64,000 nucleotides of DNA, from the IMG/VR virus record IMGVR_UViG_3300028490_000003; one strand, written 5' to 3'. A program made the position numbers and the translations under genes. Positions 932-16,080 of the stretch are shown piece after piece. This stretch comes from an uncultured virus (IMG/VR IMGVR_UViG_3300028490_000003). Lineage: Duplodnaviria > Heunggongvirae > Uroviricota > Caudoviricetes. The notes under the pieces were generated by a model. It saw nothing but the letters and a program-made list of their open reading frames with translations, was not told the DNA's origin and made no database searches. Within the stretch, counting starts at the first letter, position 1; the number at the start of each line of letters is the position of its first letter.

Positions 932-1063
932 CTTATCTTATTATCATCGCTATAATGACATAAAACATATTGATATCATATAAGGATAGATAATATATTA
1001 GCCATTTTAGCATATTAGTACTGGTTTTAGTTAATATAGTGTCCATTTTCCTTATAATTTTAG

Positions 1064-1137
1064 TTGCGCAGGAGGGATTCGAACCCCCGACCTCAAGGTT
1101 ATGAGCCTTGCGAGCTGGCCAACTGCTCTACCGCGCG
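1064..1137 (-). tRNA. tRNA-Met(CAT), initiator-like
   Basis: CGCGCGG...CTGCGCA-A with C1:A72 mismatch, anticodon loop CTCATAA, GGTTCGAATCC T arm. Confidence 0.93.
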
Positions 1138-1148
1138 ATGTTAATTTG

Positions 1149-1220
1149 TACTGCCGAAGGGAATCGAACCCTCGTTTTCACCGTGAAAGGGTGGTGTCCT
1201 GGCCGTTAGACGACGGCAGC
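1149..1220 (-). tRNA. tRNA-Glu(TTC)
   Basis: Cloverleaf, loop CTTTCAC, T arm GGTTCGATTCC. Confidence 0.93.
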
Positions 1221-1230
1221 AAATAATTTG

Positions 1231-1301
1231 TTGACTTAGAAGGATTCGAACCCTCGCTATGTGGACCAAAACCACATGTGCTACCGTTACACCATAAGTC
1301 A
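1231..1301 (-). tRNA. tRNA-Gln(TTG)
   Basis: Cloverleaf, stem TGTGG/CCACA, loop TTTTGGT. Confidence 0.93.
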
Positions 1302-1306
1302 AAATT

Positions 1307-1340
1307 AAAAAAACCTCTAAAATTTCTAATAGAGGTTCTT
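1307..1340 (-). terminator. Intrinsic terminator/attenuator immediately upstream of the Gln-Glu-Met tRNAs
   Basis: AACCTCTA-loop-TAGAGGTT followed by a U-run on the minus strand. Confidence 0.8.
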
Positions 1341-1364
1341 TTATATACAATAACAATAAATACC

Positions 1365-1448
1365 TCAAGTATAAAACATAAATTCCCCACCTTGCACTCT
1401 AATGCACTGTGTATTCTTTATCGAACTTGTATTTATAAAACGAATCAT
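1365..1448 (-). CDS. Putative leader peptide (27 aa) MIRFINTSSIKNTQCIRVQGGEFMFYT
   Basis: ATG..TGA ORF between the promoter motif (1485-1496) and the terminator; the stop overlaps TGAGGT, complementary to ACCTC in the terminator 5' arm. Confidence 0.7.
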   Translation of the reverse strand: MIRFINTSSIKNTQCIRVQGGEFMFYT

Positions 1449-1484
1449 TTGCGACTTTATTGTTTAAATTAATTTTTACACCTA

Positions 1485-1496
1485 TATAATACTAAA
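1485..1496 (-). promoter_or_regulatory. Recurrent TTTAGTATTAT promoter-like motif
   Basis: Same motif found in at least 8 other positions at the head of transcription units. Confidence 0.65.
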
Positions 1497-1519
1497 TATT
1501 TTTAATAATATAAAGTAAA

Positions 1520-3400: not shown

Positions 3401-3402
3401 AT

Positions 3403-3645: not shown

Positions 3646-3647
3646 AA

Positions 3648-4414: not shown

Positions 4415-4445
4415 TTTTCTTATTTATTTATTTATTATTTTAATT

Positions 4446-4879: not shown

Positions 4880-4880
4880 A

Positions 4881-5033
4881 TTATATAGTTGTTATTATAT
4901 TATACATAGATGTAACAATAACAAATACACTTAGCCATGCTATTAATCCTAAAGCTATTGCTAAAGGTCTGTTGATTAAAACGTTTCTTTTAAAAGAAAA
5001 CATCCACCATACCATTGTAAAATATTCTTTCAT
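4881..5033 (-). CDS. small membrane protein (50 aa)
   Basis: Manual translation MKEYFTMVWW...IALGLIAWLSVFVIV...; exactly fills the gap between neighbours. Confidence 0.6.
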   Translation of the reverse strand: MKEYFTMVWWMFSFKRNVLINRPLAIALGLIAWLSVFVIVTSMYNIITTI

Positions 5034-5035
5034 AA

Positions 5036-5317
5036 CTATCTATTTTTTATTATTATTTGATAATCTACTACTGTACTATCTTTACCTTTTAAAGCATATA
5101 CTTCTATATCTCCTTGAGCTATTTTAGTATACATTACTTTTCTTTGTATTGATAATGCCACTAAACTAATAGCTGCTACTACAAAAATTAATAATGCCAT
5201 TGATCTTTCATCATATGGCCCAGCATTTGTTCCAAGTGTTAAAGATAAAAATATTATTAAACTAATTACACCTACTATTATGAGGCCTACTATTATTAGT
5301 ATTAAAACTATTTCCAT
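5036..5317 (-). CDS. small membrane protein (2 TM)
   Basis: Two hydrophobic stretches. Confidence 0.75.
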   Translation of the reverse strand: MEIVLILIIVGLIIVGVISLIIFLSLTLGTNAGPYDERSMALLIFVVAAISLVALSIQRKVMYTKIAQGDIEVYALKGKDSTVVDYQIIIKNR

Positions 5318-5338
5318 TTTATTTAAATTTAATTATTA

Positions 5339-5370
5339 AAAAAGGCCAAACAAATTAATGTTTGGCCAAT
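5339..5370 (-). terminator. Intrinsic terminator after the TROVE gene
   Basis: GGCCAAACA/TGTTTGGCC hairpin plus U-run on minus. Confidence 0.8.
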
Positions 5371-5391
5371 GAATATATCAAAATACTGAAG

Positions 5392-6975: not shown

Positions 6976-7010
6976 TTTCTTATTATTTAATGGGTTATTA
7001 TTTATTTAAT

Positions 7011-7268
7011 TTAAAATACTGAATAATTATCAATATTTTCTGTATATTTTTTATAGAGAAGTTTAAGGTTATCATTTTGTTTATCCCAATAATTACCTCC
7101 TTCAGGAGATATATGCCAATTAAAACCTTTACCGTGAGTACACATATTAAGACACATATTATCATCTACTTCACATTCTTCAGCTAGTATATTTTTAACA
7201 GCTTTTTTATATAATACAGGATGTGATTCTTTTACAAACCATAAAGGTACTTCTTTTAATATGATCAT
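7011..7268 (-). CDS. small protein with C-terminal DNYSVF tag
   Basis: 85 aa; FNWHISPEGGNYW motif. Confidence 0.8.
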   Translation of the reverse strand: MIILKEVPLWFVKESHPVLYKKAVKNILAEECEVDDNMCLNMCTHGKGFNWHISPEGGNYWDKQNDNLKLLYKKYTENIDNYSVF

Positions 7269-7287
7269 AATTTTAATTTTGTTTAAT

Positions 7288-7320
7288 AAAAAAGGCCGCC
7301 CAAATTAATGAGCGGCCTTG
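7288..7320 (-). terminator. Intrinsic terminator after the Y-RNA-like cluster
   Basis: AAGGCCGC/GCGGCCTT hairpin plus U-run; loop region caaattaatg is identical to the 5339 terminator. Confidence 0.8.
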
Positions 7321-7327
7321 TTAAAAA

Positions 7328-7484
7328 AAGGTAGAGAATACGTGAGAGAGGTTTGCCATTTTTAGGGTGATGACACCACCATGGTTTACGAGCCCGATGT
7401 CTCGCTTCTTTCTCAATGTATAGTGTAATGTCTAGCATTACTTTATAAAATGTTACGATGTAACTCTTTCATTACTACTACCTT
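7328..7484 (-). ncRNA. Y-RNA-like (Yrl-like) ncRNA, copy A
   Basis: Terminal stem AAGGTAG/CTACCTT, conserved GTAGTA..GAGTTACATCG and ATTCTC motifs, close to the TROVE gene. Confidence 0.7.
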
Positions 7485-7490
7485 ATAATT

Positions 7491-7568
7491 TAACAAGGGA
7501 ATTAGTGCGGTGTGTTATGTGTAAAATACCAAAAATTTCGAAGTAACACAGGTGCTTACCACTTGTTA
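7491..7568 (-). ncRNA. Y-RNA-like ncRNA, copy B (minimal)
   Basis: TAACAAG/CTTGTTA stem, GTGGTA..GTGTTACTTCG..ATTCC. Confidence 0.7.
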
Positions 7569-7583
7569 TATATGTTTAAAAAA

Positions 7584-7715
7584 TAAGGGGGAATGCTGGG
7601 ATGAGCATAATGATATAAATGCAGGACTTGAACCCGCGACGTTTTGTTCCGAATACAAATGATCTAACCAACTGATCTAATTTACGATGAAACTCATGGA
7701 TCCTCACCACCCTTA
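7584..7715 (-). ncRNA. Y-RNA-like ncRNA, copy C, carrying a tRNA-like body (anticodon TCG)
   Basis: TAAGGG/CCCTTA stem, GAGTTTCATCG, then D arm GATCAGTTGGTTAGATC, TTTGT-ATTCGGA-ACAAA, T arm GCGGGTTCAAGTCCTGC. Confidence 0.75.
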
Positions 7716-7780
7716 ATTTTTTATTTTTCAATGAACTTTCTACTACTAAAACGTAATAGATATTGTTTTATTGTTTGAAA

Positions 7781-8044
7781 TTATTTAATTCCTCCAATAA
7801 GTACCCCATTTTTAAATATGAGTACTCCTTTTGTTTCTAAGATAAAATAAACAAATTTATTTTTACCTTTAGTAACTCTTTTTACTTTGATCACTTTAAC
7901 GCCTTTAGCTCCTTGCTTAGTTACGTTCTTAAGTGTGATAGCATTACTGTCAATAGTATATACTTGACCCTTTTTCATGTCTTGTGCCTGTGCAGATACC
8001 ACCATTCCGATGACTAATACTGCTAATATAAATAATTTTCTCAT
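7781..8044 (-). CDS. small secreted protein
   Basis: Sec signal peptide MRKLFILAVLVIGMVVSAQA-Q. Confidence 0.8.
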   Translation of the reverse strand: MRKLFILAVLVIGMVVSAQAQDMKKGQVYTIDSNAITLKNVTKQGAKGVKVIKVKRVTKGKNKFVYFILETKGVLIFKNGVLIGGIK

Positions 8045-8661
8045 TAAAATGTAACTTTTATACCTGCGTCAATCGAAGGTAATTTTAGAACATAATGTTC
8101 ATTTTCAAATTTTCTAGCTGCGTCTACTTTATAATCGTAATCACCATCATCAAAATACTCATCATCAAGTGTGATATCTAGATTCATCTTTTGCATATTA
8201 TATCCTGCAAATGCACCTACTGTAATACCATTTTTAAGTTCATAGTTATATCCAACATTACCTGTTATATGTAATTTACCTGTAGCGGCTACATTTATAT
8301 AACTATAGTTAAAATCATAATTATAAAACATATGTCCTACATCCATATTAACATATAAACCATCTACCCAAGGTAAATTGTATGCAAATCTTGCAAATAC
8401 TGGATAAGTCTGAAATCCTTCTTCTACAAAGTCATCTTTAAATATGTTAATTCCTGCTCCAATACCAACTTCGAAATCTCCAAGAGGTGCTGTAGCAATA
8501 GCATACGCCGTTAACTTATCAAAATCTAATTGTAGCTCATCGTTTTTATCAGCTACACTAAAACCATATCCTATCTCTAAATCAGGTCTAATTTTAAACT
8601 TTTGCGCGTAAACGCCCGTTGTGAATAACAATATAGCTATTCCTAAAATAATTCTTTTCAT
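8044..8661 (-). CDS. Outer-membrane beta-barrel protein
   Basis: Signal peptide (..VYA-Q), alternating aromatic/Gly beta strands, C-terminal AGIKVTF beta signal. Confidence 0.8.
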   Translation of the reverse strand: MKRIILGIAILLFTTGVYAQKFKIRPDLEIGYGFSVADKNDELQLDFDKLTAYAIATAPLGDFEVGIGAGINIFKDDFVEEGFQTYPVFARFAYNLPWVDGLYVNMDVGHMFYNYDFNYSYINVAATGKLHITGNVGYNYELKNGITVGAFAGYNMQKMNLDITLDDEYFDDGDYDYKVDAARKFENEHYVLKLPSIDAGIKVTF

Positions 8662-8679
8662 AATCTGTTTTTAAATTAG

Positions 8680-8763
8680 TACTCCTGACTGGATTCGAAC
8701 CAGCAAGCCTTTCGGCGTCAGATTTTAAGTCTGATGTGTTTACCTAAATTTCACCACAAGAGC
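8680..8763 (-). tRNA. tRNA-Leu(TAA)
   Basis: Loop CTTAAAA, long variable arm GCCGAAAGGC. Confidence 0.93.
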
Positions 8764-8770
8764 AGTTATG

Positions 8771-8974
8771 TTATTTACCATTTAAGATATCTAACAAAGC
8801 ACCCATTACTTGTTGGTTGCTTTCTCCCCAAAACATCTCACATTTAAAAACTCCTTTATCTATTACAAAAGGTTCCACTAAAAATATAGGATTATCAATC
8901 TCAGGATTTTCATCATATCTATGACATTTTTCTTTTACAGGACATTTAGTCCCTTTACACAGTGTTATGTCCAT
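8771..8974 (-). CDS. small Cys-rich protein
   Basis: MDITLCKGTKCPVKEKCHRY...CEMFW; start placed at the second Met. Confidence 0.75.
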   Translation of the reverse strand: MDITLCKGTKCPVKEKCHRYDENPEIDNPIFLVEPFVIDKGVFKCEMFWGESNQQVMGALLDILNGK

Positions 8975-9278
8975 AATCTTTAAATTTATCAGGTAGAACA
9001 CCGTTCCACCATATATATTCACTGTTTTCAGTTTTAAACCTACACAATTTACATTGCTCAGTTTCTATTTCTTCTAAAATCTCTGTAACCAATGTTGTGG
9101 TCCAGTTATCAAATAAACTACTATATAAAATAACACCGTTTCCTATTAAAGGATAAACACCATCATTTTTATTATATGTTCTATCGTCGCTCCAATTGAC
9201 AGACATAGATCTTTTACAATTAATCTCTTTGCCGTCTCGTTTTCTTCTTAGATGAAAAGGCATTACGGTATGAACCAT
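8955..9278 (-). CDS. hypothetical protein
   Basis: 107 aa; WTTTLVTEILE...FKTENSEY. Confidence 0.75.
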   Translation of the reverse strand: MVHTVMPFHLRRKRDGKEINCKRSMSVNWSDDRTYNKNDGVYPLIGNGVILYSSLFDNWTTTLVTEILEEIETEQCKLCRFKTENSEYIWWNGVLPDKFKDYGHNTV

Positions 9279-9478
9279 TTTTCATTCAACGTAAATTTTC
9301 CACCTGAGGATATTCCCCAACCTTCTACTACTTCAACAGTCCAATTACCTTTTCCTTTCATAAACATGCCAGGATCTAATTGAGCTAGTAATGTAACAGT
9401 AGCTGCTCCAAGTTCATGTGGAACTTCCATATTATCTTCGATCTCTACTGTATCACCGACTTCATAGATTATTTTCAT
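9263..9478 (-). CDS. hypothetical protein
   Basis: 71 aa; YEVGDTV start motif. Confidence 0.75.
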   Translation of the reverse strand: MKIIYEVGDTVEIEDNMEVPHELGAATVTLLAQLDPGMFMKGKGNWTVEVVEGWGISSGGKFTLNEKWFIP

Positions 9479-9508
9479 ATTATTTTATTTATTTAGTTTA
9501 GTATTAAA

Positions 9509-9647
9509 AACAGAGGAATGCTAGAAAGAGCAAAACCAAATTGTCTTCCCATTTTATATTATTCTTTAGTGGGAAGAGCAGGAGTCGAACCTACACTATT
9601 TAATGATATATGAATCACGAAGTAACTCTTATTCTTTACCATCTGTT
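9509..9647 (-). ncRNA. Y-RNA-like ncRNA, copy D (T arm plus closed acceptor-like stem)
   Basis: AACAGA/TCTGTT stem, GAGTTACTTCG, GTAGGTTCGACTCCTGC, TCTTCCCA/TGGGAAGA. Confidence 0.75.
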
Positions 9648-9656
9648 ATATTGTTG

Positions 9657-9742
9657 AGGAGAGAATGGGATTTGAACCCATGCGCCTGTTACAGCCTATT
9701 GATTTAGCAAACCAACCTCTTAAACCGCTTGAGTACCTCTCC
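9657..9742 (-). tRNA. tRNA-Ser(GCT)
   Basis: Loop TTGCTAA, long variable arm. Confidence 0.92.
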
Positions 9743-9791
9743 TGGAGCGGGCTTAGTGATAAAACTAAGTATCATCCCGCATGTATTATTG

Positions 9792-9872
9792 TCTCCCAGG
9801 TAGGGATCGAACCTACACGCCTTGCGGACCAGATTTACAGTCTAGCGAGCCAGCCAAATGCTCAACTGAGAG
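9792..9872 (-). tRNA. tRNA-Tyr(GTA) with C1-G72
   Basis: CTAGA-CTGTAAA-TCTGG, variable arm CCGCAAGG, T arm GTAGGTTCGATCCCTAC. Confidence 0.88.
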
Positions 9873-9878
9873 ATATTG

Positions 9879-9947
9879 TGGGAACAGCGAGATTCGAACT
9901 CACCTGCTAGCGATTTACAGTCGCGGCACCTATGCCTGAGTGCTCCC
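9879..9947 (-). tRNA. atypical tRNA-Tyr(GTA)-like gene
   Basis: GGGAGCA/TGTTCCC acceptor, GCGA-CTGTAAA-TCGC, T loop TTCGAAT; shrunken D arm and no long variable arm. Confidence 0.7.
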
Positions 9948-9994
9948 GTGATCATTGTTTATAAGCCTTTCAGCAGGTACAACGATAAAACCTT

Positions 9995-10282
9995 TTATTT
10001 TAATTTAGCTTCAATTTTTTCTAAAATACTTAATTTATCTTCAATTCTCCATAAAGAACTTAATATATGTTGTAATACAATTACACCTTGTTGTTGTACA
10101 GTAGCGCCAGTTTTAAAGTCTTTTTCAAATTCTTTTTCTTTATAACCAAAATTTTCTACTGCTACCATATTATCTATAAAAGCTTGTAATTGTTTAGGTT
10201 CCATACTATCTTTTAATTTTTGGATAGATCCTATTTTATGTTCTATTTGAGCTTTAAAACCATAATCATTTATATATGTCAT
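9995..10282 (-). CDS. hypothetical protein
   Basis: 95 aa ORF between tRNAs. Confidence 0.75.
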   Translation of the reverse strand: MTYINDYGFKAQIEHKIGSIQKLKDSMEPKQLQAFIDNMVAVENFGYKEKEFEKDFKTGATVQQQGVIVLQHILSSLWRIEDKLSILEKIEAKLK

Positions 10283-10307
10283 TTAATTTTATTTAATTTA
10301 TTATATG

Positions 10308-10380
10308 CGGTCTACATGGGAGTCGAACCCACAATCTTCGCAGTGACAGTGCAACATGTTACCAACAACACCTCTAGACC
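10308..10380 (-). tRNA. tRNA-Asp(GTC)
   Basis: Loop CTGTCAC, G73. Confidence 0.92.
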
Positions 10381-10484
10381 ATTTTATATTATAACGTTAA
10401 CGAGCACCTTTTATCCTTGTACTATTAAACCTTGGGAATGGCAGCGCAATTAAGTATCACCTATTATACCAACGGTTAACGTTT

Positions 10485-10580
10485 TAGTTATGAACGGATT
10501 TCATACCGCCAGCTCAACTCTTTAACAGAGAGACGCGTTATTTTCTACATATTTGTAGAGAGTATTAACACCACATAACT
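10485..10580 (-). tRNA. degenerate tRNA-Asn(GTT)-like RNA with expanded D arm
   Basis: AGTTATG/CATAACT acceptor, CTCT-CTGTTAA-AGAG, non-canonical T arm GGCGG-TATGAAAT-CCGTT. Confidence 0.55.
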
Positions 10581-10634
10581 TATGATATATCATTCATTAA
10601 CCCTTAAAAAGGTACTTAATGTAGTATATTTCAT

Positions 10635-10790
10635 TCAATCTTCTTTCTTCTTACTAAATATATAAAAAGTTAAAGCGAGTATACTTAATATAAAAAATAC
10701 TACAAAATCTGTTCTATTTTCAGCTACTACAGCATTATAAGACAGTATTAATAATGCCCAAAAAGACATTAAGCTTTCAGTTCTTTTCAT
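10635..10790 (-). CDS. small membrane protein
   Basis: MKRTESL... with two hydrophobic segments; the track's upstream extension overlaps tRNA-Ala. Confidence 0.65.
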   Translation of the reverse strand: MKRTESLMSFWALLILSYNAVVAENRTDFVVFFILSILALTFYIFSKKKED

Positions 10791-10812
10791 TTTATTTGTT
10801 TTAGTTAAATTG

Positions 10813-10888
10813 TGGAGCCGATGGGATTTGAACCCACGATCTTCTGATTGCAAAACAGACGCTTTAAGCCAGGCTAAGCTACGGTCCC
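10813..10888 (-). tRNA. tRNA-Ala(TGC)
   Basis: Loop TTTGCAA, G3.U70. Confidence 0.92.
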
Positions 10889-10896
10889 AAGTAAAA

Positions 10897-11047
10897 AATT
10901 AATAGAGAATAATGGAGGGAGTGAAACACATAAAGTGCCTGAATGAAAATCAGGTGACCTAACCACTAGTCAAATTGGGCAATGCTGCTCAATATAGGAT
11001 TCGAACCTATGAAACGAAGTAACTCCTATTCCTCACTACTATTAATT
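10897..11047 (-). ncRNA. Y-RNA-like ncRNA, copy E, carrying a circularly permuted tRNA-Glu(TTC)-like module
   Basis: AATTAATAG/CTATTAATT stem, GAGTTACTTCG, then T arm, closed acceptor hairpin, D arm, CCTGA-TTTTCAT-TCAGG. Confidence 0.78.
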
Positions 11048-11050
11048 TAT

Positions 11051-11428
11051 TTATTTATATAATACCATTATGGTTGATGGTGCTTGTACTACTACAGTAT
11101 CATCATAAATATATACTACTATATTATCAGAGTAAAAAATTATTTCATCTTTTCTTTGAGTAAGCGTTTGTATATTAGTTAAATGTATATTAGATGTTTG
11201 TCCATCATCAGTATGTAAATCTATTGTTATAGTTTTATCTGGATTAAATGAAAATATACCACGTACATGTATTATATCAGAATAGACAAACATATGAGAG
11301 TATTTATCCATGTGGGCAATTGATGCTTGTGTAGGATAAAATTGTAGTCTTTCTCTACTTTCTCCTTCATAATCTTGTGCAAATAGCATATTACTCAAGA
11401 ATAATACTATTATTAATATTTTTTTCAT
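11051..11428 (-). CDS. secreted protein
   Basis: Signal peptide MKKILIIVLFLSNMLFA-Q. Confidence 0.8.
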   Translation of the reverse strand: MKKILIIVLFLSNMLFAQDYEGESRERLQFYPTQASIAHMDKYSHMFVYSDIIHVRGIFSFNPDKTITIDLHTDDGQTSNIHLTNIQTLTQRKDEIIFYSDNIVVYIYDDTVVVQAPSTIMVLYK

Positions 11429-11447
11429 ATCTGCTTATTTAAATTTG

Positions 11448-11521
11448 AGCCTCCAGAGGGATTCGAACCCACGACATTCTCATTACAAGTGAGATGCTCT
11501 GGCCAACTGAGCTATGGAGGC
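11448..11521 (-). tRNA. tRNA-Thr(TGT)
   Basis: Loop CTTGTAA, canonical cloverleaf. Confidence 0.94.
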
Positions 11522-11640
11522 ATGGCAGGGGCTTTGGTACCATACGCCTGAGGTTGGACCCCCCAGGAAACTCGAGCCCCTATATTGCAATTACTTTGAC
11601 ACTTTAAAACTTCACAAGAGGTGTGTAATTGCTATATTAT

Positions 11641-11829
11641 TTAAAATATTTCATAGTCGTATTCTATAGGCTTTTTCCATTGCTCTATTAAATACTTTGC
11701 TTTATTAGCTGCATAAGGAACTGGAATAGATAACCAAGCAGCTGTTGTTAATTCCATTACATAGGCTTCTATGTTAAGTTCAGTAATTTCTCCTGTAACA
11801 TATAAATAATGTAGATCTTTTACATCCAT
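11641..11829 (-). CDS. small protein with C-terminal YDYEIF tag
   Basis: 62 aa. Confidence 0.75.
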   Translation of the reverse strand: MDVKDLHYLYVTGEITELNIEAYVMELTTAAWLSIPVPYAANKAKYLIEQWKKPIEYDYEIF

Positions 11830-12065
11830 TATTTTATATATTTTGAGATATTAATTACTCCTTCTATATTACCATGTCTTGCAACAATGTCCTCATCTTC
11901 ATCATCTAATTCAGCATTTTGAATATCTTCTGCATTAAATGCAAATTCTTCAGATAATTCTAAAAGTCTTATTCTATCTATTTGATGTCCCTCTTCAACA
12001 AGTTCTCCATCTATATAAATAGCTTCCCAATCACCAGATTGAGTATTTATAATTATTATTTTCAT
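11829..12065 (-). CDS. acidic hypothetical protein
   Basis: 78 aa; GDWEAIYIDG..EGH. Confidence 0.8.
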   Translation of the reverse strand: MKIIIINTQSGDWEAIYIDGELVEEGHQIDRIRLLELSEEFAFNAEDIQNAELDDEDEDIVARHGNIEGVINISKYIK

Positions 12066-12067
12066 AT

Positions 12068-12358
12068 TTAAAATATTTCATAATTATCATTAAATGTAGT
12101 ACCCATTATTTCATCTACATAATTACTATATGCTTCAGCACTTATCATAGGATCCCAAGCTTTATTATCAATACCTACACGACCATTAAAATAGCCTACG
12201 TATCTCATATTAGTAACTTTATAATAATCAAAATTTACATCATTTTGGTTATCAGAGTTTCTAAATTTATTAAAGATTAAATCAGCTTTATTTATATATA
12301 ACTGTCTCTCTTTATTATTACTTACTGAAACACAAAAAGTATCTGTTAGTATATTCAT
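12068..12358 (-). CDS. small protein with C-terminal DNYEIF tag
   Basis: Start moved to MNILTD because the track's start overlaps tRNA-Trp. Confidence 0.75.
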   Translation of the reverse strand: MNILTDTFCVSVSNNKERQLYINKADLIFNKFRNSDNQNDVNFDYYKVTNMRYVGYFNGRVGIDNKAWDPMISAEAYSNYVDEIMGTTFNDNYEIF

Positions 12359-12385
12359 TTTGTTTAATTTATTTATTAAAATTTG

Positions 12386-12456
12386 CACGCCTTAAAGGAT
12401 TCGAACCCTTACAAAGAGGTTTGGAAGCTCTTGTGCTACCATTACACTAAAGGCGC
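12386..12456 (-). tRNA. tRNA-Trp(CCA)
   Basis: Loop TTCCAAA by cloverleaf spacing, G73; C31.C39 mismatch. Confidence 0.85.
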
Positions 12457-12500
12457 GTGTTAATTATTTTATTATCCAATATGTCAAAGACCATGTCTTG

Positions 12501-12583
12501 TACTCCTAGAGAGAATCGAACTCTCATGCCTCTCGGCACTAGATCCTAAATCTAGCGTGTCTACCTAATTCCACCATAGGAGC
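12501..12583 (-). tRNA. tRNA-Leu(TAG)
   Basis: CTAGA-TTTAGGA-TCTAG, long variable arm. Confidence 0.93.
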
Positions 12584-12754
12584 AAAATGAACTATAAAAC
12601 CAGGAGCGTACCCTGGAGACTAATTCCACCACATCCCGTGGCTCTTTTAATTTCATAATGGATCCCTAAAAACTCTTTCGAGAAAACTTAGATCCATCAT
12701 TAATAGTTACACCGAGGGGATCCCTTACACTATTAACGTTTTCTTCTCATTTTG

Positions 12755-12829
12755 GGTGAAAGATGGGTTTCGAACCCACGACCTCTTGAACCACAATCAA
12801 GCGTTCTAACCAACTGAACTACAATCACC
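12755..12829 (-). tRNA. tRNA-His(GTG)
   Basis: Loop TTGTGGT, G-1:C73. Confidence 0.93.
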
Positions 12830-12836
12830 ATATTAA

Positions 12837-13085
12837 CTACTTACATCCTATTGGTATATCTTCATATATCATATGAGTAGTATCTTTCATTATTAAGATA
12901 GCACTACCATCACAAAACGTGTAAATAATATTACCTTCATCACCATCTTCTTCATCTTTAAATGTTGAGACAGCTTTTTCTTTAATTTTATTAACTACTT
13001 CTTTTGTTAAATTACCTTCAAATACATGTACTACAGGTAAATATGAGGGTTTAACAGCAAAGTCTAATAGTGTTTTTGCTATCAT
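12837..13085 (-). CDS. hypothetical protein
   Basis: 82 aa ORF. Confidence 0.75.
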   Translation of the reverse strand: MIAKTLLDFAVKPSYLPVVHVFEGNLTKEVVNKIKEKAVSTFKDEEDGDEGNIIYTFCDGSAILIMKDTTHMIYEDIPIGCK

Positions 13086-13086
13086 T

Positions 13087-13221
13087 TTATTTTAAGCATT
13101 CATCAACTAGTTCTTGAAATAAGTCTCTTGGTAATTCAAATGCTGATATAAGTACATCTATATCATCTTCTGACATTTCTTCCAAGCGCTTTCTCAACTT
13201 TGTTAATTTTATTTCTGCCAT
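13087..13221 (-). CDS. small hypothetical protein (44 aa)
   Basis: Manual translation MAEIKLTKLRKRLEEMSEDDIDVLISAFELPRDLFQELVDECLK; abuts the next start. Confidence 0.65.
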   Translation of the reverse strand: MAEIKLTKLRKRLEEMSEDDIDVLISAFELPRDLFQELVDECLK

Positions 13222-13252
13222 TTTATTTAATTTAGTATTTTAATGAACTTAG

Positions 13253-13326
13253 TATGTCTAGAGGGACTCAAACCCCCAACCTCTAAGGCCGTAACTTAGG
13301 GCTCTATTCAATTGAGCTATAGACAT
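13253..13326 (-). tRNA. tRNA-Arg(ACG)
   Basis: CTAAG-TTACGGC-CTTAG. Confidence 0.92.
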
Positions 13327-13331
13327 AAATG

Positions 13332-13407
13332 TCGGAGTGGTCAGATTCGAACTGACGTGCTCTGCATCCCAAATGCAGCGAGATAAACCGTGCTCCTCTA
13401 CACCCCG
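13332..13407 (-). tRNA. tRNA-Pro(TGG)
   Basis: CTGCA-TTTGGGA-TGCAG, C1-G72, A73. Confidence 0.93.
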
Positions 13408-13411
13408 TAAT

Positions 13412-13447
13412 AAAAAAACCTGATACTTTTAAGGGATATCAGGTTTT
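13412..13447 (-). terminator. Intrinsic terminator/attenuator immediately upstream of the large tRNA cluster
   Basis: AAAACCTGATAT-CCCTTAAAA-GTATCAGGTTTTTTT. Confidence 0.85.
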
Positions 13448-13473
13448 ATATATTTAACTAAAATATTATGATA

Positions 13474-13551
13474 TCACCTAACATACCTATCCGCACTATG
13501 ATCTAGCCATAATGTTCGCGGAGTTTGATATGTGTATAAAGATGTTCTCAT
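13474..13551 (-). CDS. Putative leader peptide (25 aa) MRTSLYTYQTPRTLWLDHSADRYVR
   Basis: ATG..TGA ORF between promoter motif and terminator; its codons match downstream tRNAs; AGGTGATATCA across the stop is complementary to the terminator 5' arm. Confidence 0.8.
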   Translation of the reverse strand: MRTSLYTYQTPRTLWLDHSADRYVR

Positions 13552-13584
13552 ACTATTTAAACGTTTTATTTATTTAGTTATTAC

Positions 13585-13596
13585 AATAATACTAAA
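13585..13596 (-). promoter_or_regulatory. TTTAGTATTAT promoter-like motif
   Basis: Recurrent motif about 35 nt upstream of the leader ATG. Confidence 0.65.
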
Positions 13597-13637
13597 CTTT
13601 TTTTAAAAAATAAAGTAAAACCAGTAATATTTATAAA

Positions 13638-13982
13638 TTATATGACCTTTTTATCTATATAATTTTCTAATTCTTTCGCAACTTTCACAAAATCTGTGTA
13701 ATATTCATTTTTAATTTCAGCAGTATTTCTTTCCATAATAACGAAAAGAACATCTTCAGGAATATCTTCAGATAACTCACCAATACGCCCAATAGCGTTA
13801 CATTGTTCATTAATAATTTTAGTTGTTTCAGTAAAATCATTATCAGAATCAATAACAGCTTTAAATTGTATCTTTTCAAAAATTTCAGGGCCTAATAATT
13901 TAATAGACTCTGCTTCAGGGCTTAATTGCCCAAATATGCTTACAGTTGCCATAACAAATAATATTAATAATAGTTTTTTCAT
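13638..13982 (-). CDS. secreted protein
   Basis: Signal peptide MKKLLLILFVMATVSIFG-Q. Confidence 0.8.
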   Translation of the reverse strand: MKKLLLILFVMATVSIFGQLSPEAESIKLLGPEIFEKIQFKAVIDSDNDFTETTKIINEQCNAIGRIGELSEDIPEDVLFVIMERNTAEIKNEYYTDFVKVAKELENYIDKKVI

Positions 13983-14161
13983 TGTTCTCCATTTAAAAAT
14001 TCAATATACTCTGTCCACATTCTACTTACATAAGCATTAGAACAGCTGCATAATCTAGCAATATCATTATTTTTTCTAATATTTCCAAAACATGATATTA
14101 CTTTTGCTTTTTTAGACATTATATCATCTGTAAGATCTATAGCATCGATATTGATAGCCAT
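13979..14161 (-). CDS. small HTH-like protein
   Basis: NNDIARLCSCSNAYVSR resembles a helix-turn-helix. Confidence 0.6.
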   Translation of the reverse strand: MAINIDAIDLTDDIMSKKAKVISCFGNIRKNNDIARLCSCSNAYVSRMWTEYIEFLNGEQ

Positions 14162-14425
14162 TTAAGAGGCAAACACTTTAGCTTCCTCATAAATAAACCA
14201 TTGTTTTTGTCTACCATCTGGGTATTTAAACTCTGCCATTTCCTCTTCAGAATAACAATATGCAGCAGCAGCAAAAAAGCCATTATTTACTACACATACT
14301 AATCCTTCAACCCACATGTCTGGTTCAGGAACACTTTCAGCACCTGCTTTTTCTAAAGCACTTGTTTTTTCTGCAAAAGAAGCTCCTAAGTCTTCTCCAT
14401 TGATTCTATTTATGTATTTTCCCAT
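14162..14425 (-). CDS. hypothetical phage protein
   Basis: 87 aa; VCVVNNGFFAAA. Confidence 0.8.
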   Translation of the reverse strand: MGKYINRINGEDLGASFAEKTSALEKAGAESVPEPDMWVEGLVCVVNNGFFAAAAYCYSEEEMAEFKYPDGRQKQWFIYEEAKVFAS

Positions 14426-14426
14426 T

Positions 14427-14690
14427 TTACACGCGTTTTTTTAAAGTTTCTAATTCTCTGTTAATTCTTGAGATGTTGCCATCAGTTAATTTAACAGTTT
14501 CACCTGATTTATTAATTTTAACTCCAGTATCTAACTGGGCTTTTAAACGAGATAATACTCTCGCTCTTCTGAGTTTTTTTGGTACTCCACCACTAGCATT
14601 TTGTGCCATATAGCTTCTTAGTTTATTTACTCTATTAGAATGAGGCAGGGAATAGAGCTTTTCCTTTTCGATTTGCATGTCTAGCCTCAT
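14427..14690 (-). CDS. basic hypothetical protein
   Basis: 87 aa; true start uncertain. Confidence 0.65.
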   Translation of the reverse strand: MRLDMQIEKEKLYSLPHSNRVNKLRSYMAQNASGGVPKKLRRARVLSRLKAQLDTGVKINKSGETVKLTDGNISRINRELETLKKRV

Positions 14691-14697
14691 TTATTAT

Positions 14698-14955
14698 TTA
14701 AAACACTGAATAATTATCGTTTTCACGTATTTTTTGTAGTTTTGCTATATCTTTTATTCCACTTTTAAAAAGCTCTATCTCATCTCTTGTAGCAAATCTC
14801 CATTGGTGTCCTTCCATGTATACATAATTTCCATATTGTACACTAGTACCGCCACTAACATAATTAACTTTATGCATCAAGCCTATTTTAGCTGATGAAT
14901 AAGAGTCTCTTCCAGTTCGTACAACTATATCTCCAATTTTCGCAAAACGTGACAT
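14698..14955 (-). CDS. small protein with WRFAT motif and DNYSVF tag
   Basis: 85 aa. Confidence 0.8.
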   Translation of the reverse strand: MSRFAKIGDIVVRTGRDSYSSAKIGLMHKVNYVSGGTSVQYGNYVYMEGHQWRFATRDEIELFKSGIKDIAKLQKIRENDNYSVF

Positions 14956-15467
14956 TATGACATGATATTTATAAACGTCTCAACAAGGTACAATTTTGGA
15001 AAAAAAGTAACCTTGATCGCATCTAATATATGATGGAAAAACATTATAATACCAATTAAAGCACCTAATACTCTACTAGAGTAATAAGTAACTTCTTCTA
15101 TAGTAGGAGCATTGTAACCACTATCAATATATCTATCTCCAAATACTTTACTATAGTTCCCTTCTTCTGGTTTATCTTTAACAGTTACTACTCTTGGTAT
15201 AATAATAAAACCTAAGATAAAAGTAATGATAGCTAAACCTACATAGAACCATGCACGCACAGCTTCAAACATTAAATACTGTTGAATTACTATCGGTGCT
15301 TCTGCTACCAGCATGTCCGTACCTGTTTTTATTCCTTCAGCAAGTTCTCCTACATATTGTATCATAAGCTCTTCAAACTTATTATGTTCAGATTGATTGT
15401 TGTTACTTTGGGAATATGAAGTATACCCCATTGTAAACATTAATAATATTAATATTATTCTTTTCAT
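14955..15467 (-). CDS. membrane protein with signal peptide
   Basis: Signal peptide plus 2 TM segments. Confidence 0.8.
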   Translation of the reverse strand: MKRIILILLMFTMGYTSYSQSNNNQSEHNKFEELMIQYVGELAEGIKTGTDMLVAEAPIVIQQYLMFEAVRAWFYVGLAIITFILGFIIIPRVVTVKDKPEEGNYSKVFGDRYIDSGYNAPTIEEVTYYSSRVLGALIGIIMFFHHILDAIKVTFFPKLYLVETFINIMS

Positions 15468-15568
15468 TTTAAGACATTTTAAATTTAATTATTAATAATA
15501 ATATAAGCATACATACAAATCCTATAAATGCATATGTAGCTATCTTCATACTTGTTTTTTTACTCATT

Positions 15569-15760
15569 TTAATTCCAATTTTTAGAGCTGTATTTTTCAA
15601 ACAACTCTGGCCACGTATCCATTATTTTACGTTTATTGTTCATATCTGCTTTATAAAATAAAACAGCTAGTTCTACTACAAAACTACCTCCATATGTAGT
15701 CATATTTTGAAGAGTAGCATGTCTCTCTTCTGCGGATTCAAATAAAAATTGTTTTCCCAT
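15569..15760 (-). CDS. hypothetical phage protein
   Basis: YGGSFV..LA....KAD..N...I...WPE. Confidence 0.8.
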   Translation of the reverse strand: MGKQFLFESAEERHATLQNMTTYGGSFVVELAVLFYKADMNNKRKIMDTWPELFEKYSSKNWN

Positions 15761-15765
15761 CTTAT

Positions 15766-16080
15766 TTAACCGTAATAATTAAAAATACAATAATCATCTA
15801 GTATTTTCTCTATTTCAGGAGCTCTAACTGGTCCCTTATTGCTTTTAAGATATAATCTAACCTCGTCTGTTCTAGCGAATCTCCAATTTATACTGTTATC
15901 TCTATTATAACCTGGATATCTTTTACCATTACAATGTAAAGTTTCATCTAAACTATCTTGTTGATAAATAAATCCAATAATTGGATTACTTATTAATCCA
16001 TATAATCTAGATACATCTGTAATAACAATAAACTGACCATCTCTAAATTTAGTAGGCTTTCTTTTTTGTCTACTATACAT
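15766..16080 (-). CDS. small protein with WRFA motif and near-terminal DDYCIF
   Basis: 104 aa. Confidence 0.75.
   Translation of the reverse strand: MYSRQKRKPTKFRDGQFIVITDVSRLYGLISNPIIGFIYQQDSLDETLHCNGKRYPGYNRDNSINWRFARTDEVRLYLKSNKGPVRAPEIEKILDDYCIFNYYG

What the first reader, a model, noticed from the sequence alone, without database searches (positions are those of the whole stretch)
13412..13596. Leader-peptide attenuator whose codons match the downstream phage tRNA array one-to-one
Seen in sequence (minus strand): promoter motif (13596-13585), then a 25-codon ORF (13551-13474), then an intrinsic terminator (13447-13412), then the tRNA array starting 4 nt later. Codons 11-20 are CCG CGA ACA TTA TGG CTA GAT CAT AGT GCG, with TAT at codon 23. 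Each is read by a different downstream tRNA: Pro-TGG, Arg-ACG, Thr-TGT, Leu-TAA, Trp-CCA, Leu-TAG, Asp-GTC, His-GTG, Ser-GCT, Ala-TGC and Tyr-GTA. Both Leu isoacceptors and the AGY Ser box are matched, so every canonical tRNA between 8.6 and 13.4 kb is covered. AGGUGAUAUCA, spanning the UGA stop, is complementary (one bulge) to UGAUAUCCCU in the terminator 5' arm and loop. Established knowledge: classical trp/his/thr attenuators use runs of one or two amino acids. Inference: a ribosome that reaches the stop masks the antiterminator and transcription ends. A stall at any sensor codon, for example after host anticodon-nuclease cleavage or tRNA depletion, frees the antiterminator and turns on the replacement tRNAs and co-transcribed Y-like RNAs. 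This would be an OR-gate sensor of tRNA-pool integrity; I am not aware of it having been described.
Basis: partly seen in the sequence, partly recalled or inferred. Interest (0 to 1): 0.96.

Follow-up and report, generated by a model that had tools for sequence, protein, structure and literature searches.

The report
Codon-matched leader attenuator gating phage tRNAs
A tiny test gene in front of a phage's cluster of tRNA genes is spelled in exactly the codons those tRNAs read and is wired to a switchable transcription stop, so the phage probably makes its own tRNAs only when ribosomes run short of them.

Summary
On the minus strand lie a promoter-like motif (13619-13586), a 25-codon ORF (13551-13474), a hairpin with U-run (13447-12), then tRNA-Pro 4 nt later. 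Codons 11-20 are each read by a different downstream tRNA. This 10-codon run is the longest in the window's six frames (next best 6-8, by rule; about 1e-4 to 5e-3 expected). All 12 tRNAs of the block are used within 24 codons (simulation p 5e-6). An antiterminator over the stop codon competes with the terminator. A second unit with the same promoter heads the Gln-Glu-Met block, but its codon match is not significant. Eight more units turned up in six other phage groups, including cultured Cellulophaga phages phi4:1 and phi17:2, and their leader codons change with their arrays (0 of 300,000 permutations). A diverged strain keeps codons 10-25 and the antiterminator unchanged. Best reading: trp-style ribosome-mediated attenuation giving feedback control of phage tRNA genes (about 0.78). 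There is no expression data. The defence-sensing trigger and the 'Y-like RNAs' are unverified. Seven literature searches found no published account. This scan has noted the same design on other DNA before.

The parts
13586..13619 (-). Promoter-like motif TTTACTTTAT-N14-TTAGTATTAT heading unit 1
   Evidence: Exact copy also at 1519-1486 (-), heading unit 2. There are 5 matches at <=3 mismatches against 0.17 expected. The second box, TTAGTATTAT, occurs 6 times against 1.26 expected; the other copies lie at 17298-17289 (-), 31937-31928 (-), 32232-32241 (+) and 48099-48108 (+). It resembles the -7 box before phi4:1 unit 2. The polymerase that uses it is not known.
13474..13551 (-). Leader ORF, 25 codons plus TGA (MRTSLYTYQTPRTLWLDHSADRYVR)
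   Evidence: It is the only ATG ORF of 8-45 codons that ends within 110 nt before the hairpin. 17 of 24 codons are read by the block under strict wobble, against a background of 0.297 (p 4e-5). 12 of 12 tRNA kinds are used (p 5e-6). Only 1 of 263 small ORFs in the window reaches that, and it is this ORF.
13492..13521 (-). Sensor run: 10 consecutive codons, each read by a different array tRNA (Pro, Arg, Thr, Leu-UAA, Trp, Leu-UAG, Asp, His, Ser-GCU, Ala)
   Evidence: Longest such run in all six frames of the window. Expected 1.4e-4 to 5e-3 per window. It uses codons rare in this phage: CCG is 3% of Pro codons, CGA 4% of Arg codons and GCG 8% of Ala codons.
13490..13522 (-). Hairpin formed by the sensor run itself (CCGCG...GCGG outer pairs), a possible pause or region-1 structure
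   Evidence: -10.1 kcal/mol, and present in the free folds. Its role is inferred only.
13469..13488 (-). Antiterminator 5' strand (codons 22-25, the stop codon and 5 nt beyond), complementary to the terminator 5' arm and loop
Evidence: Register nt 64-76 with 108-120 gives -12.5 kcal/mol (-14.2 in context). The pairing forms in nascent-transcript folds with a ribosome stalled at codons 8-14 and is lost with a ribosome at the stop. 20 of 2000 shuffles reach the duplex energy.
13412..13447 (-). Intrinsic-terminator-like hairpin (11-12 bp, 9-nt loop) plus U-run, ending 4 nt before tRNA-Pro
   Evidence: -11 to -12.4 kcal/mol. In two diverged strains the stem is kept while the loop changes, and one A>G change at the stem base keeps the pair. 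Not called by the scanner, whose loop limit is 8.
7612..13407 (-). Controlled block of 12 tRNA genes (Pro-tgg, Arg-acg, His-gtg, Leu-tag, Trp-cca, Thr-tgt, Ala-tgc, Asp-gtc, Tyr-gta, Ser-gct, Leu-taa, Arg-tcg) interspersed with small ORFs
   Evidence: No further copy of the promoter box TTAGTATTAT lies inside it. Co-transcription is inferred, not shown.
7292..7319 (-). Strong terminator-like hairpin about 290 nt after the last tRNA of the block; likely end of the unit
   Evidence: 11 pairs, 7 of them G-C, followed by a T-run. It has the same loop as the phi4:1 unit-1 terminator, with compensating stem changes.
1486..1519 (-). Unit 2 promoter-like motif, the same two boxes as unit 1
   Evidence: 0 mismatches.
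1365..1448 (-). Unit 2 leader ORF (MIRFINTSSIKNTQCIRVQGGEFMFYT)
   Evidence: It holds CAG, CAA, GAA and ATG, so 3 of 3 tRNA kinds are used, but this is not beyond chance (p 0.17-0.34).
1307..1341 (-). Unit 2 terminator-like hairpin plus U-run, ending 5 nt before tRNA-Gln
   Evidence: -9.9 to -10.6 kcal/mol. TTGAGGTA across the stop codon is a near copy of its 3' arm, but 751 of 2000 shuffles reach the duplex energy.
1063..1301 (-). Unit 2 block: tRNA-Gln-ttg, Glu-ttc, Met-cat

Best explanation
This is a ribosome-mediated (leader-peptide) transcription attenuator placed in front of a phage operon of tRNA genes.

Transcription starts at the conserved promoter-like motif, and the 25-codon leader is translated as it is made. 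If the tRNAs that read codons 11-20 are plentiful, the ribosome runs to the UGA. There it covers the antiterminator strand (codons 22-25, the stop codon and 5 nt beyond), the terminator hairpin forms, and RNA polymerase stops 4 nt before tRNA-Pro.

If any one of those tRNAs is scarce, the ribosome stalls inside the sensor run and the antiterminator strand stays free. It then pairs with the terminator's 5' arm as that emerges, and polymerase reads on into the 12 tRNA genes and the small genes between them. The new tRNAs relieve the stall, so the loop is a negative feedback that supplies phage tRNAs on demand.

Shown here: the codon-to-array match and its covariation in relatives, the hairpin, the competing pairing and its position relative to the ORF, the shared promoter motif, and strain-level conservation.

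Inferred: that the ORF is translated, that the hairpin terminates, that stalling causes read-through, and what makes tRNAs scarce in nature.
For: (1) Match in the window. The 10-codon all-different run is the unique maximum of all six frames, with 1.4e-4 to 5e-3 expected. 12 of 12 tRNA kinds are used in 24 codons: p 5e-6 strict, 1.25e-4 loose. Only 1 of 263 small ORFs reaches that, and it is this ORF.

(2) Codon-level choice. The sensor uses CCG, CGA and GCG, which are 3%, 4% and 8% of their families in this phage. Across units whose array has tRNA-Pro(UGG), 6 of 7 Pro codons are CCG against a 3.8% background (p 2e-8). The one leader whose array lacks tRNA-Pro uses CCT.

(3) Architecture. Nascent-transcript folds give an antiterminator with a ribosome stalled at codons 8-14, in all 9 units and in 5 of the 6 units folded; redid L008, whose terminator misplaced. 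A ribosome at the stop removes that pairing in W1, W2, phi4:1 unit 1, L003 unit 2 and L007, where the strand lies at the end of the ORF or is otherwise captured. The duplex energy is reached by <=70 of 2000 shuffles in 6 of 9 units. In W1 the antiterminator (-14.2) and the terminator (-12.4) are near iso-energetic.

(4) Covariation. Ten units were compared: 2 in the window, 2 in phi4:1, 2 in L003, and 1 each in L007, L008, L009 and L017. The sum of own-array Z is 25.8 and own coverage is 9.44 of 10, reached by 0 of 300,000 permutations. The same holds with best-of-candidate ORFs in both the observed and the null sets. Examples follow.
- L003 unit 1: the SLLSHLHLLSSS run precedes a Ser/His/Leu-only array.
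- L003 unit 2: the IQIPQQPR run precedes Pro, Gln, Ile-tat and Arg tRNAs.
- L008: the EQHNNTWQP run precedes Pro, Glu, His, Gln, Asn and Trp tRNAs.
- phi4:1 unit 2: the NYCTYNNSNWSFSY run precedes Tyr, Ser, Asn, Trp and Phe tRNAs.
- L007: the leader uses 19-20 of 20 downstream tRNA kinds, reached by 0 of 200,000 simulations.

(5) Promoters lie directly upstream of the leaders.

(6) Conservation. In a strain about 15% diverged in the flanking genes (28/164, 21/164 and 14/94 differences), none of the 10 placed differences of the leader piece falls in 13446-13524, which holds codons 10-25, the stop, the antiterminator and the spacer. They fall in codons 2, 4, 6 and 9, in the 5' UTR, in the terminator loop, and at one pair-preserving A>G change. 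By my arithmetic, the chance that 10 differences spread evenly over the 181 non-tRNA bases all miss that stretch is about 0.003.
Against: - There is no expression, 3'-end or ribosome data; no RNA run holds the stretch.
- Full-length minimum-energy folds always show the terminator, so the switch rests on kinetic (nascent) folds with an assumed ribosome footprint.
- In W1's at-stop fold 9 of 11 arm bases still pair with scattered upstream bases, in a weak fold of -6.4 kcal/mol.
- The antiterminator duplex is not better than shuffles in 3 of 9 units: W2 751, L007 189 and L017A 294 of 2000.
- In five units the antiterminator strand lies mid-ORF, so a ribosome parked at the stop does not cover it. 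These need a trp-like 1:2 pairing or steric exclusion, which I saw only for L003 unit 2.
- In W1 a ribosome stalled at codons 18-20 or 23 would partly cover the antiterminator.
- Unit 2 of the window and phi4:1 unit 1 show no significant codon enrichment on their own.
- The general preference for A/G-ending codons is weak: 24 of 37 against 47% (p 0.02), and against unmatched boxes p 0.19.
- Several tRNA blocks have no such unit: the L002 group of 7 loci, L005, the second block of L007, and the Met block of L009.
- All relatives were fetched through one shared tRNA-Pro word, so the units may share ancestry and are not fully independent.
- The polymerase that uses the promoter motif is unknown, and so is whether transcription and translation are coupled in this host.
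- 6 of the 16 differences in the strain comparison are not placed by the output.
Confidence: 0.78

Rival explanations
1. The leader is translated and codon-matched, but it acts by another route than intrinsic-terminator attenuation. Ribosome position might instead control processing or decay of the tRNA precursor (the hairpin acting as a nuclease or stability element) or factor-dependent termination.
For: The hairpin is A/U-rich with only 3 G-C pairs and a 9-nt loop, and the consensus scanner did not call it. Its U-run ends 4-9 nt from the tRNA 5' end in five units, where RNase P must cut anyway. In five units the antiterminator strand is mid-ORF rather than at the stop.
Against: Every unit has a hairpin followed by 6-9 U, the signature of intrinsic termination. 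A strand complementary to its 5' arm is enriched over shuffles in 6 of 9 units. The stems are kept and the loops vary between strains.
Confidence: 0.1
2. The same parts work with the opposite sign: efficient translation of the leader promotes read-through. The tRNA operon would then be expressed only when translation is healthy, or the leader would simply be a translated spacer that tunes a leaky terminator.
For: Polarity has not been measured. With no ribosome at all, W1's nascent fold also forms the antiterminator, so the default state is ON.
Against: A ribosome at the stop codon covers roughly nt 61-88 and cannot reach the terminator, which starts at nt 105, but it does cover the antiterminator strand. 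The geometry is that of the classical attenuators (recalled). A positive loop would not need a one-to-one listing of the array's codons.
Confidence: 0.05
3. It senses amino-acid supply (charging) in general rather than the abundance or integrity of particular tRNAs. It would be a multivalent starvation sensor like the ilv or thr leaders, and it happens to control tRNA genes.
For: Any leader-peptide attenuator reads charged tRNA, so starvation for any of about 11 amino acids would also stall the ribosome.
Against: The match is at the level of isoacceptor and codon, not of amino acid. Both Leu isoacceptors and the AGY Ser box are matched. CCG is used in 6 of 7 cases against a 3.8% background. 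Leaders within one phage split the codon set exactly as their arrays do. Making more tRNA does not cure amino-acid starvation.
Confidence: 0.05
4. Chance ORF next to an ordinary, leaky terminator of the upstream gene; there is no regulatory link.
For: Short ORFs abound in A/T-rich DNA (116 ORFs of 20 aa or more in 9 kb). Unit 2's codon match is at chance level.
Against: Expected 1.4e-4 to 5e-3 such runs per window. The run is the unique maximum of six frames. 0 of 300,000 permutations reach the observed covariation. A promoter motif lies between the upstream gene and the ORF. The sensor is conserved at nucleotide level in a diverged strain.
Confidence: 0.02

Closest known systems
Leader-peptide transcription attenuators of enterobacterial amino-acid operons (trpL, hisL, leuL, thrL, ilvL, pheL); described from recall
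   Same: A short translated leader carries the regulatory codons, followed by an intrinsic terminator and a mutually exclusive antiterminator. The ribosome's position decides the fold. L003 unit 2 even shows a trp-like 1:2 pairing.
   Different: The controlled genes are tRNA genes, not biosynthetic enzymes, so the product sensed is the product made. The sensor is not a run of one to three amino acids but a one-to-one list of up to 12 (here) or about 20 (L007) different tRNAs, chosen at codon and isoacceptor level. It lies in a phage of Bacteroidota type. No Rfam leader family matches above threshold.
pheST (pheM leader) attenuator, which controls an aminoacyl-tRNA synthetase; recalled
   Same: Leader-peptide attenuation applied to a component of the translation apparatus, read out through the availability of charged tRNA.
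   Different: It senses one amino acid (Phe), controls a protein gene and is a cellular system. Here many tRNAs are sensed and the tRNA genes themselves are controlled.
T-box riboswitches; recalled, with the Rfam family tested
   Same: They sense tRNA status and switch between a terminator and an antiterminator upstream of translation-related genes. A codon-like specifier is matched to the tRNA.
   Different: A T-box binds one uncharged tRNA directly and has no ORF. Here there is no T-box match, an ORF is present, and many tRNAs are read through the ribosome.
Phage-encoded tRNAs as codon compensation or as counter-defence against tRNA-cleaving immunity (eLife 2023, PMC10264068: passages searched; Nature 2024, PMC11464382: listing and start of abstract only)
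   Same: The same class of genes is controlled. A shortage sensor fits both ideas of why phages carry tRNAs.
   Different: Those works concern what phage tRNAs do, not how they are switched on. PMC10264068 contains none of the words promoter, terminator, leader or attenuat-.

Membership tests
Leader-peptide (ribosome-mediated) transcription attenuator | Short ORF with start and stop codons in the 5' leader of the controlled operon, downstream of a promoter | tested here: met
   ORF 13551-13474. The promoter-like motif at 13619-13586 is shared with unit 2 and with operon heads. It is the only candidate ORF under the scan rule.
Leader-peptide (ribosome-mediated) transcription attenuator | Regulatory codons in the leader correspond to what the operon supplies | tested here: met
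   12 of 12 array tRNA kinds are used, p 5e-6. The run of 10 is unique in six frames. Covariation over 10 units is reached by 0 of 300,000 permutations.
Leader-peptide (ribosome-mediated) transcription attenuator | Intrinsic terminator between the leader ORF and the first structural gene | tested here: met
   Hairpin of -11 to -12.4 kcal/mol plus 7 U at 13447-13412, 4 nt before tRNA-Pro. This is by sequence only; termination itself was not measured.
Leader-peptide (ribosome-mediated) transcription attenuator | Mutually exclusive antiterminator, placed so that a ribosome at the stop blocks it and a ribosome stalled at the regulatory codons does not | tested here: met
   Strand 13488-13469 pairs with the terminator 5' arm (-12.5 / -14.2 kcal/mol). 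It forms in nascent folds with stalls at codons 8-14 and is lost with a ribosome at the stop. 20 of 2000 shuffles reach the energy. The result depends on the model: an assumed footprint and minimum-energy folds.
Leader-peptide (ribosome-mediated) transcription attenuator | Read-through rises when the cognate charged tRNA is limiting and depends on translation of the leader | not testable with these tools
   No RNA run holds the stretch. This needs Term-seq, Ribo-seq or reporter assays.
Rfam leader families (Trp_leader, His_leader, Leu_leader, Thr_leader and others) | Covariance-model match at or above the gathering score | tested here: not met
   only tRNAs pass. At the leader the best match is the trpB motif at 27.3 bits against a cut-off of 59 (E 1.4). 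Trp_leader scores 19.9 against 41, at another place (7286-7387).
T-box riboswitch | Match to the T-box model (specifier loop, T-box sequence) and no need for an ORF | tested here: not met
   No T-box match at E <= 10 in 6900-13650 or at E <= 1 in 1-16000.

The most novel reading that the evidence does not exclude
These units are members of a widespread, so far undescribed class of viral sensors of the integrity of the host tRNA pool. The leader lists the very tRNAs the phage can replace. Any loss of one of them opens the gate and releases the whole replacement set. Such a loss could come from anticodon nucleases and other tRNA-targeting defences, from decay of host tRNAs late in infection, or from a host with a different tRNA repertoire. 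The result would be a demand-driven counter-defence and host-range device, with negative feedback that switches it off once the pool is restored.
Probability: 0.3. Interest if true: 0.95.

Novelty: new variant of a known kind. Interest (0 to 1): 0.88.

Why it matters
Why phages carry tRNA genes has been argued for decades, between codon compensation and escape from tRNA-targeting defence. How these genes are switched on has, as far as my seven searches show, not been described.

A leader that lists the array's own codons says directly what the phage measures before it makes its tRNAs: slow decoding of exactly those codons. That turns the question into experiments. The same units occur in cultured Cellulophaga phages (phi4:1, phi17:2) with a cultured host.

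The finding also extends a textbook mechanism in three ways.
- Its target is RNA genes, not enzyme genes.
- Its input is a many-input OR gate chosen at isoacceptor level, for example CCG for tRNA-Pro(UGG).
- Its lineage is Bacteroidota-type phages, here a divergent crAss-like one.

Practically, such leaders could serve several uses.
- They mark the functional boundaries of tRNA operons in phage genomes.
- They flag which tRNAs a phage treats as limiting in its host.
- They offer compact, programmable sensors of tRNA supply.

Tried and rejected
**Close relatives of the window's own leader**
- The upstream protein found no relative in viral contigs.
- The 30-nt sensor run has 0 exact matches there.
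- blastn against phage records hit only tRNA genes.
- The one relative of the TROVE protein (L020, 56% identity) has no tRNA genes.
- The nearest capsid relative (MT835470.1, 34% identity) has no tRNA match.
- No whole genome is held for the window.

**Expression**
- No RNA holder is listed.
- The two runs laid are contigs only.

**Rfam**
- No leader, T-box or Y RNA family passes.

**Folding**
- Equilibrium folds of the full leader always give the terminator, with or without a ribosome mask, so they cannot tell the two states apart. I used nascent-transcript folds instead.
- mis-set the L008 terminator boundaries; this was redone.

**Weak or negative statistics**
- Whole-ORF codon enrichment is significant only for W1 (p 4e-5) and L003 unit 2 (0.018). 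It is weak for L008 (0.078) and L007 (0.062) and absent for W2 and phi4:1 unit 1.
- The general A/G-ending preference is weak.

**Other attempts**
- A first promoter pattern with the wrong spacing gave 0 matches and was corrected.
- phi4:1 against phi17:2: the units are nearly identical, with one synonymous CAG>CAA change and one 1-nt indel upstream, so the comparison is uninformative for covariation.
- The motif TCTTTGACATATTGG does not fit a promoter for the tRNA that follows it, by its distance.
- tRNA blocks without any unit: the L002 group (7 loci), L005, the later blocks of L007, and the Met block of L009.
- In L013 and L016 the contig begins inside the array, so they could not be judged.
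Full report
**What is there.** The minus strand carries five elements in order.
- A promoter-like motif at 13619-13586.
- A 25-codon ORF at 13551-13474, with peptide MRTSLYTYQTPRTLWLDHSADRYVR and stop codon TGA.
- A 26-nt A/U-rich spacer.
- A hairpin with a U-run at 13447-13412.
- Four bases later, tRNA-Pro(tgg), the first of 12 tRNA genes that run down to 7612.

The 12 tRNAs are Pro-tgg, Arg-acg, His-gtg, Leu-tag, Trp-cca, Thr-tgt, Ala-tgc, Asp-gtc, Tyr-gta, Ser-gct, Leu-taa and Arg-tcg. Small ORFs lie between them. Each is read, under strict wobble rules, by a different one of these tRNAs. Tyr is covered by codons 6, 8 and 23.

**Is it more than chance?**
- I scanned all six frames of the 64-kb window for runs of consecutive codons each read by a different array tRNA. 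This run of 10 is the single longest. The runner-up is 6 (11 tRNAs, strict), 7 (11 loose or 15 strict) or 8 (15 loose).
- From codon or trinucleotide frequencies, the expected number of such runs in the whole window is 1.4e-4 (strict) to 5e-3 (loose).
- Over the whole ORF, 17 of 24 codons are read by the block against a background of 0.297 (p 4e-5).
- All 12 tRNA kinds are used: p 5e-6 strict and 1.25e-4 loose in 200,000 random leaders. Of 263 small ORFs of similar length in the window, 1 reaches this, and it is this ORF.
- The sensor uses codons that are rare in this phage: CCG is 3% of Pro codons, CGA 4% of Arg codons and GCG 8% of Ala codons.

**The switch.**
- Full-length minimum-energy folds always contain the hairpin, whatever ribosome mask is applied. 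I therefore folded the nascent transcript up to the end of the loop.
- With a ribosome stalled at codons 8-14, the terminator's 5' arm pairs with codons 22-25 and the first base of the stop codon: nt 64-76 with nt 108-120, -12.5 kcal/mol as a duplex and -14.2 in context.
- With a ribosome at the stop codon, this pairing is blocked. In W1's at-stop fold 9 of 11 arm bases still pair with scattered upstream bases, in a weak fold of -6.4 kcal/mol.
- 20 of 2000 shuffles of the available segment reach the observed duplex energy.
- The sensor run itself forms a hairpin closed by CCGCG/GCGG (-10.1 kcal/mol). A role as a pause or region-1 structure is my inference.
- One limit applies. A ribosome stalled at codons 18-20 or 23 would, with the footprint I assumed, cover part of the antiterminator.

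**Promoter.**
- TTTACTTTAT-N14-TTAGTATTAT is exact at 13619-13586 and at 1519-1486, with 5 matches at up to 3 mismatches against 0.17 expected.
- The second box occurs 6 times against 1.26 expected. Two of the other copies lie in the divergent intergenic region at 31.9-32.2 kb, and none lies inside the tRNA block.

**A second unit in the window.** The copy at 1519-1486 heads a second unit of the same build.
- ORF 1448-1365.
- A hairpin with a U-run at 1341-1307.
- tRNA-Gln 5 nt later, then Glu and Met.

Its leader contains CAG, CAA, GAA and ATG. That is not beyond chance (p 0.17-0.34), and its antiterminator is no better than shuffles (751 of 2000).

**Relatives: how they were fetched.**
- No close relative of the window was found.
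- A 34-base word of tRNA-Pro, shared with Cellulophaga phage phi4:1, fetched 6 viral and 12 metagenome loci.
- After merging duplicates (L006=L001, L012=L003, L015=L007), these loci together with phi4:1 (L001, fetched) make ten groups besides the window.

**Relatives: how they were scanned.**
- The scan rule was a hairpin with T-run within 200 nt upstream of a tRNA, and an ATG ORF of 8-45 codons ending within 110 nt before the hairpin.
- I also made one manual inspection.
- Together these gave 8 further units in 6 groups.

| Unit | Leader or sensor run | tRNAs that follow |
|---|---|---|
| phi4:1 unit 1 (also in phi17:2) | MKIQRLHLQELEQPIISGGTGV | 16 tRNA kinds (17 genes) starting with Pro |
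| phi4:1 unit 2 (also in phi17:2) | run NYCTYNNSNWSFSY | Tyr, Ser-gct, Asn, Trp, Phe |
| L003 unit 1 | run SLLSHLHLLSSS | an array holding only Ser, His and Leu tRNAs (relaxed ARAGORN) |
| L003 unit 2 | run IQIPQQPR | Pro, Gln, Pro, Ile-tat, Gln, Arg-acg, Pro |
| L008 | run EQHNNTWQP | Pro, Glu, His, Gln, Asn, Trp |
| L007 | 29-codon leader with 19 kinds of amino acid | it uses 19 (strict) or 20 (loose) of the 20 downstream tRNA kinds; 0 of 200,000 simulations reach this |
| L017 | MKTNNIHISNRVQWYQPCFIHSGKGMLYVDCKS | 11 of 11 kinds used |
| L009 | MKTTMTYKLEVVKTRLEGADSLSPRLGVSIGMS | 11 of 11 kinds used |

L017 and L009 overlap at 90% identity. Their two leaders split the codon set as their two arrays do.

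**Relatives: misses.**
- The L002 group (7 loci) and L005 have scattered single tRNAs and no unit.
- The later blocks of L007 and the Met block of L009 have none.
- In L013 and L016 the contig begins inside the array, so they cannot be judged.

**Covariation test.**
- For the 10 units I scored every leader against every array.
- The sum of own-array Z scores is 25.8 and own coverage is 9.44 of 10. 0 of 300,000 permutations reach either value.
- In some loci I had picked among 2-3 candidate ORFs. I therefore repeated the test taking the best candidate in both the observed and the permuted pairings, and again 0 of 300,000 reach it.
- Rows I adjusted by hand: the phi4:1 unit 1 array ends where unit 2 begins; Cys was added to the L017 array from its overlapping relative L009; and the L003 unit 1 array comes from relaxed ARAGORN.
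- At codon level, leaders whose array has tRNA-Pro(UGG) use CCG in 6 of 7 Pro codons against a 3.8% background (p 2e-8). The one leader whose array lacks it uses CCT.
- The wider preference for A/G-ending codons is weak: 24 of 37 (p 0.02), and against unmatched boxes p 0.19.

**Other shared features.**
- In all 9 units tested, the nascent fold with a stalled ribosome pairs the terminator's 5' arm with a strand in or at the end of the ORF.
- 6 of 9 units beat shuffles at 70 of 2000 or fewer.
- Bacteroidota-type promoter boxes (TTTG, about 20 nt, TAnnTTTG; consensus recalled) precede the leaders of phi4:1, L008, L009 and L017. In phi4:1 and L008 the second box ends 4 nt before the ATG.

**Strain-level conservation.** A contig of run X1 matches the flanking genes with 28/164, 21/164 and 14/94 differences and covers 13236-13619.
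- Its 10 placed differences in that piece lie in codons 2, 4, 6 and 9, in the 5' UTR and in the terminator loop. One further change is an A>G at the stem base that keeps the pair.
- None lies in 13446-13524, which holds codons 10-25, the stop, the antiterminator and the spacer.
- 6 of the piece's 16 differences are not placed by the output. They probably lie within about 30 nt of the piece ends.
- If 10 differences were spread evenly over the 181 non-tRNA bases, by my arithmetic the chance that none hits that stretch is about 0.003.
- A contig of run X2 keeps the stem and changes the loop.

**Reading.**
- The best-supported mechanism is trp-style attenuation with the polarity 'stall gives read-through'. 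Because the operon encodes the very tRNAs that are sensed, it forms a negative feedback loop.
- Shown: the sequence anatomy, the statistics, the covariation and the conservation.
- Inferred: translation of the leader, termination at the hairpin, the kinetic competition and the natural trigger.
- The rivals are another route of action, opposite sign, an amino-acid sensor, and chance. They are listed with their odds in the rival explanations.

**Comparison with what is known.**
- The element works like the classical leader-peptide attenuators, and most like the multivalent ones and the pheST leader (recalled).
- It meets every sequence-level criterion of the class, but it matches no Rfam leader or T-box model.
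- What differs is the target (tRNA genes), the input (a one-to-one list of many isoacceptors) and the setting (phages; here a divergent crAss-like phage, whose capsid matches Crass_capsid at E 1.9e-17).
- Seven full-text searches found no account of leader-peptide control of tRNA genes.
- The eLife 2023 paper on phage tRNAs holds none of the words promoter, terminator, leader or attenuat-.
- Subscription-only papers are not covered by these searches.
- This scan's own earlier notes report the same design on other DNA. I reached my reading before seeing them and treat them as agreement, not as evidence.

**Limits.**
- All relatives were anchored on one tRNA-Pro word, so shared ancestry is likely.
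- The footprint and folding models are approximations.
- Unit 2 and phi4:1 unit 1 are weak on codon statistics alone.
- No experiment bears on function.

Noticed in passing
window 5392-6975 (-): A 527-aa protein with a TROVE (Ro60-type) domain (E 2.6e-14) lies just downstream of the tRNA block. Rfam finds no Y RNA in 1-16000 or 6900-13650.
   Followed up: partly
window 9955-9878, 10554-10485, 11072-10987, 9636-9569 (all -): At relaxed thresholds ARAGORN reports weak tRNA-like elements in the gaps of the array: a second Tyr-gta, an Asn-gtt, a Leu-taa and one of unclear type. If the Asn-like one is real, the leader has no Asn codon for it. In the diverged strain, codon 6 becomes AAC.
   Followed up: no
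window 12490-12476 (-); also 356-342 (-); L007 and L009 upstream of their first tRNA; L007 about 90 nt before tRNA-Gln at 17269: The motif TCTTTGACATATTGG lies 12-20 nt upstream of a tRNA 5' end in three different phages. There are 2 matches in the window at <=2 mismatches against 0.29 expected. It is too close to the tRNA to be its promoter, and its function is unknown.
   Followed up: partly
window 7319-7292 (-) and L001 5981-6012: The strong hairpin after the last tRNA of the block has the same loop (ATTAATTT) and flanks as the attenuator terminator of phi4:1 unit 1, with compensating changes in the stem. A 51-codon ORF (7438-7283) runs through it.
   Followed up: no
window 43898-45325 (+): The major capsid protein matches the Crassvirus capsid family (E 1.9e-17). 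The best phage-record relatives are at 34% and 32% identity, in uncultured faecal phages. The window therefore belongs to a divergent crAss-like phage.
   Followed up: partly
window 8044-8661 (-), 13638-13982 (-), 14955-15467 (-): Proteins within and beside the tRNA block start with signal-peptide-like N termini. One gives a weak outer-membrane beta-barrel match, below the curated cut-off (22.6 against 28.7 bits).
   Followed up: no
window 14624-14691 (-): Near-threshold Rfam match to int-alpA RNA: 33.6 bits against a gathering score of 35.8, E 0.001.
   Followed up: no
window 12720-12650 (-): A long inverted repeat built on two GGGATCC words lies between tRNA-His and tRNA-Leu-tag. A small hairpin with TTTTAT follows at 12616-12600, 16 nt before tRNA-Leu. 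This may be a structured RNA or an internal control point.
   Followed up: no
L003 (oriented copy) 6210-6330 and 9680-9800: The roughly 110 nt upstream of the two L003 leaders are near-identical. One promoter region thus drives two leaders with different sensor sets, as in the window.
   Followed up: partly
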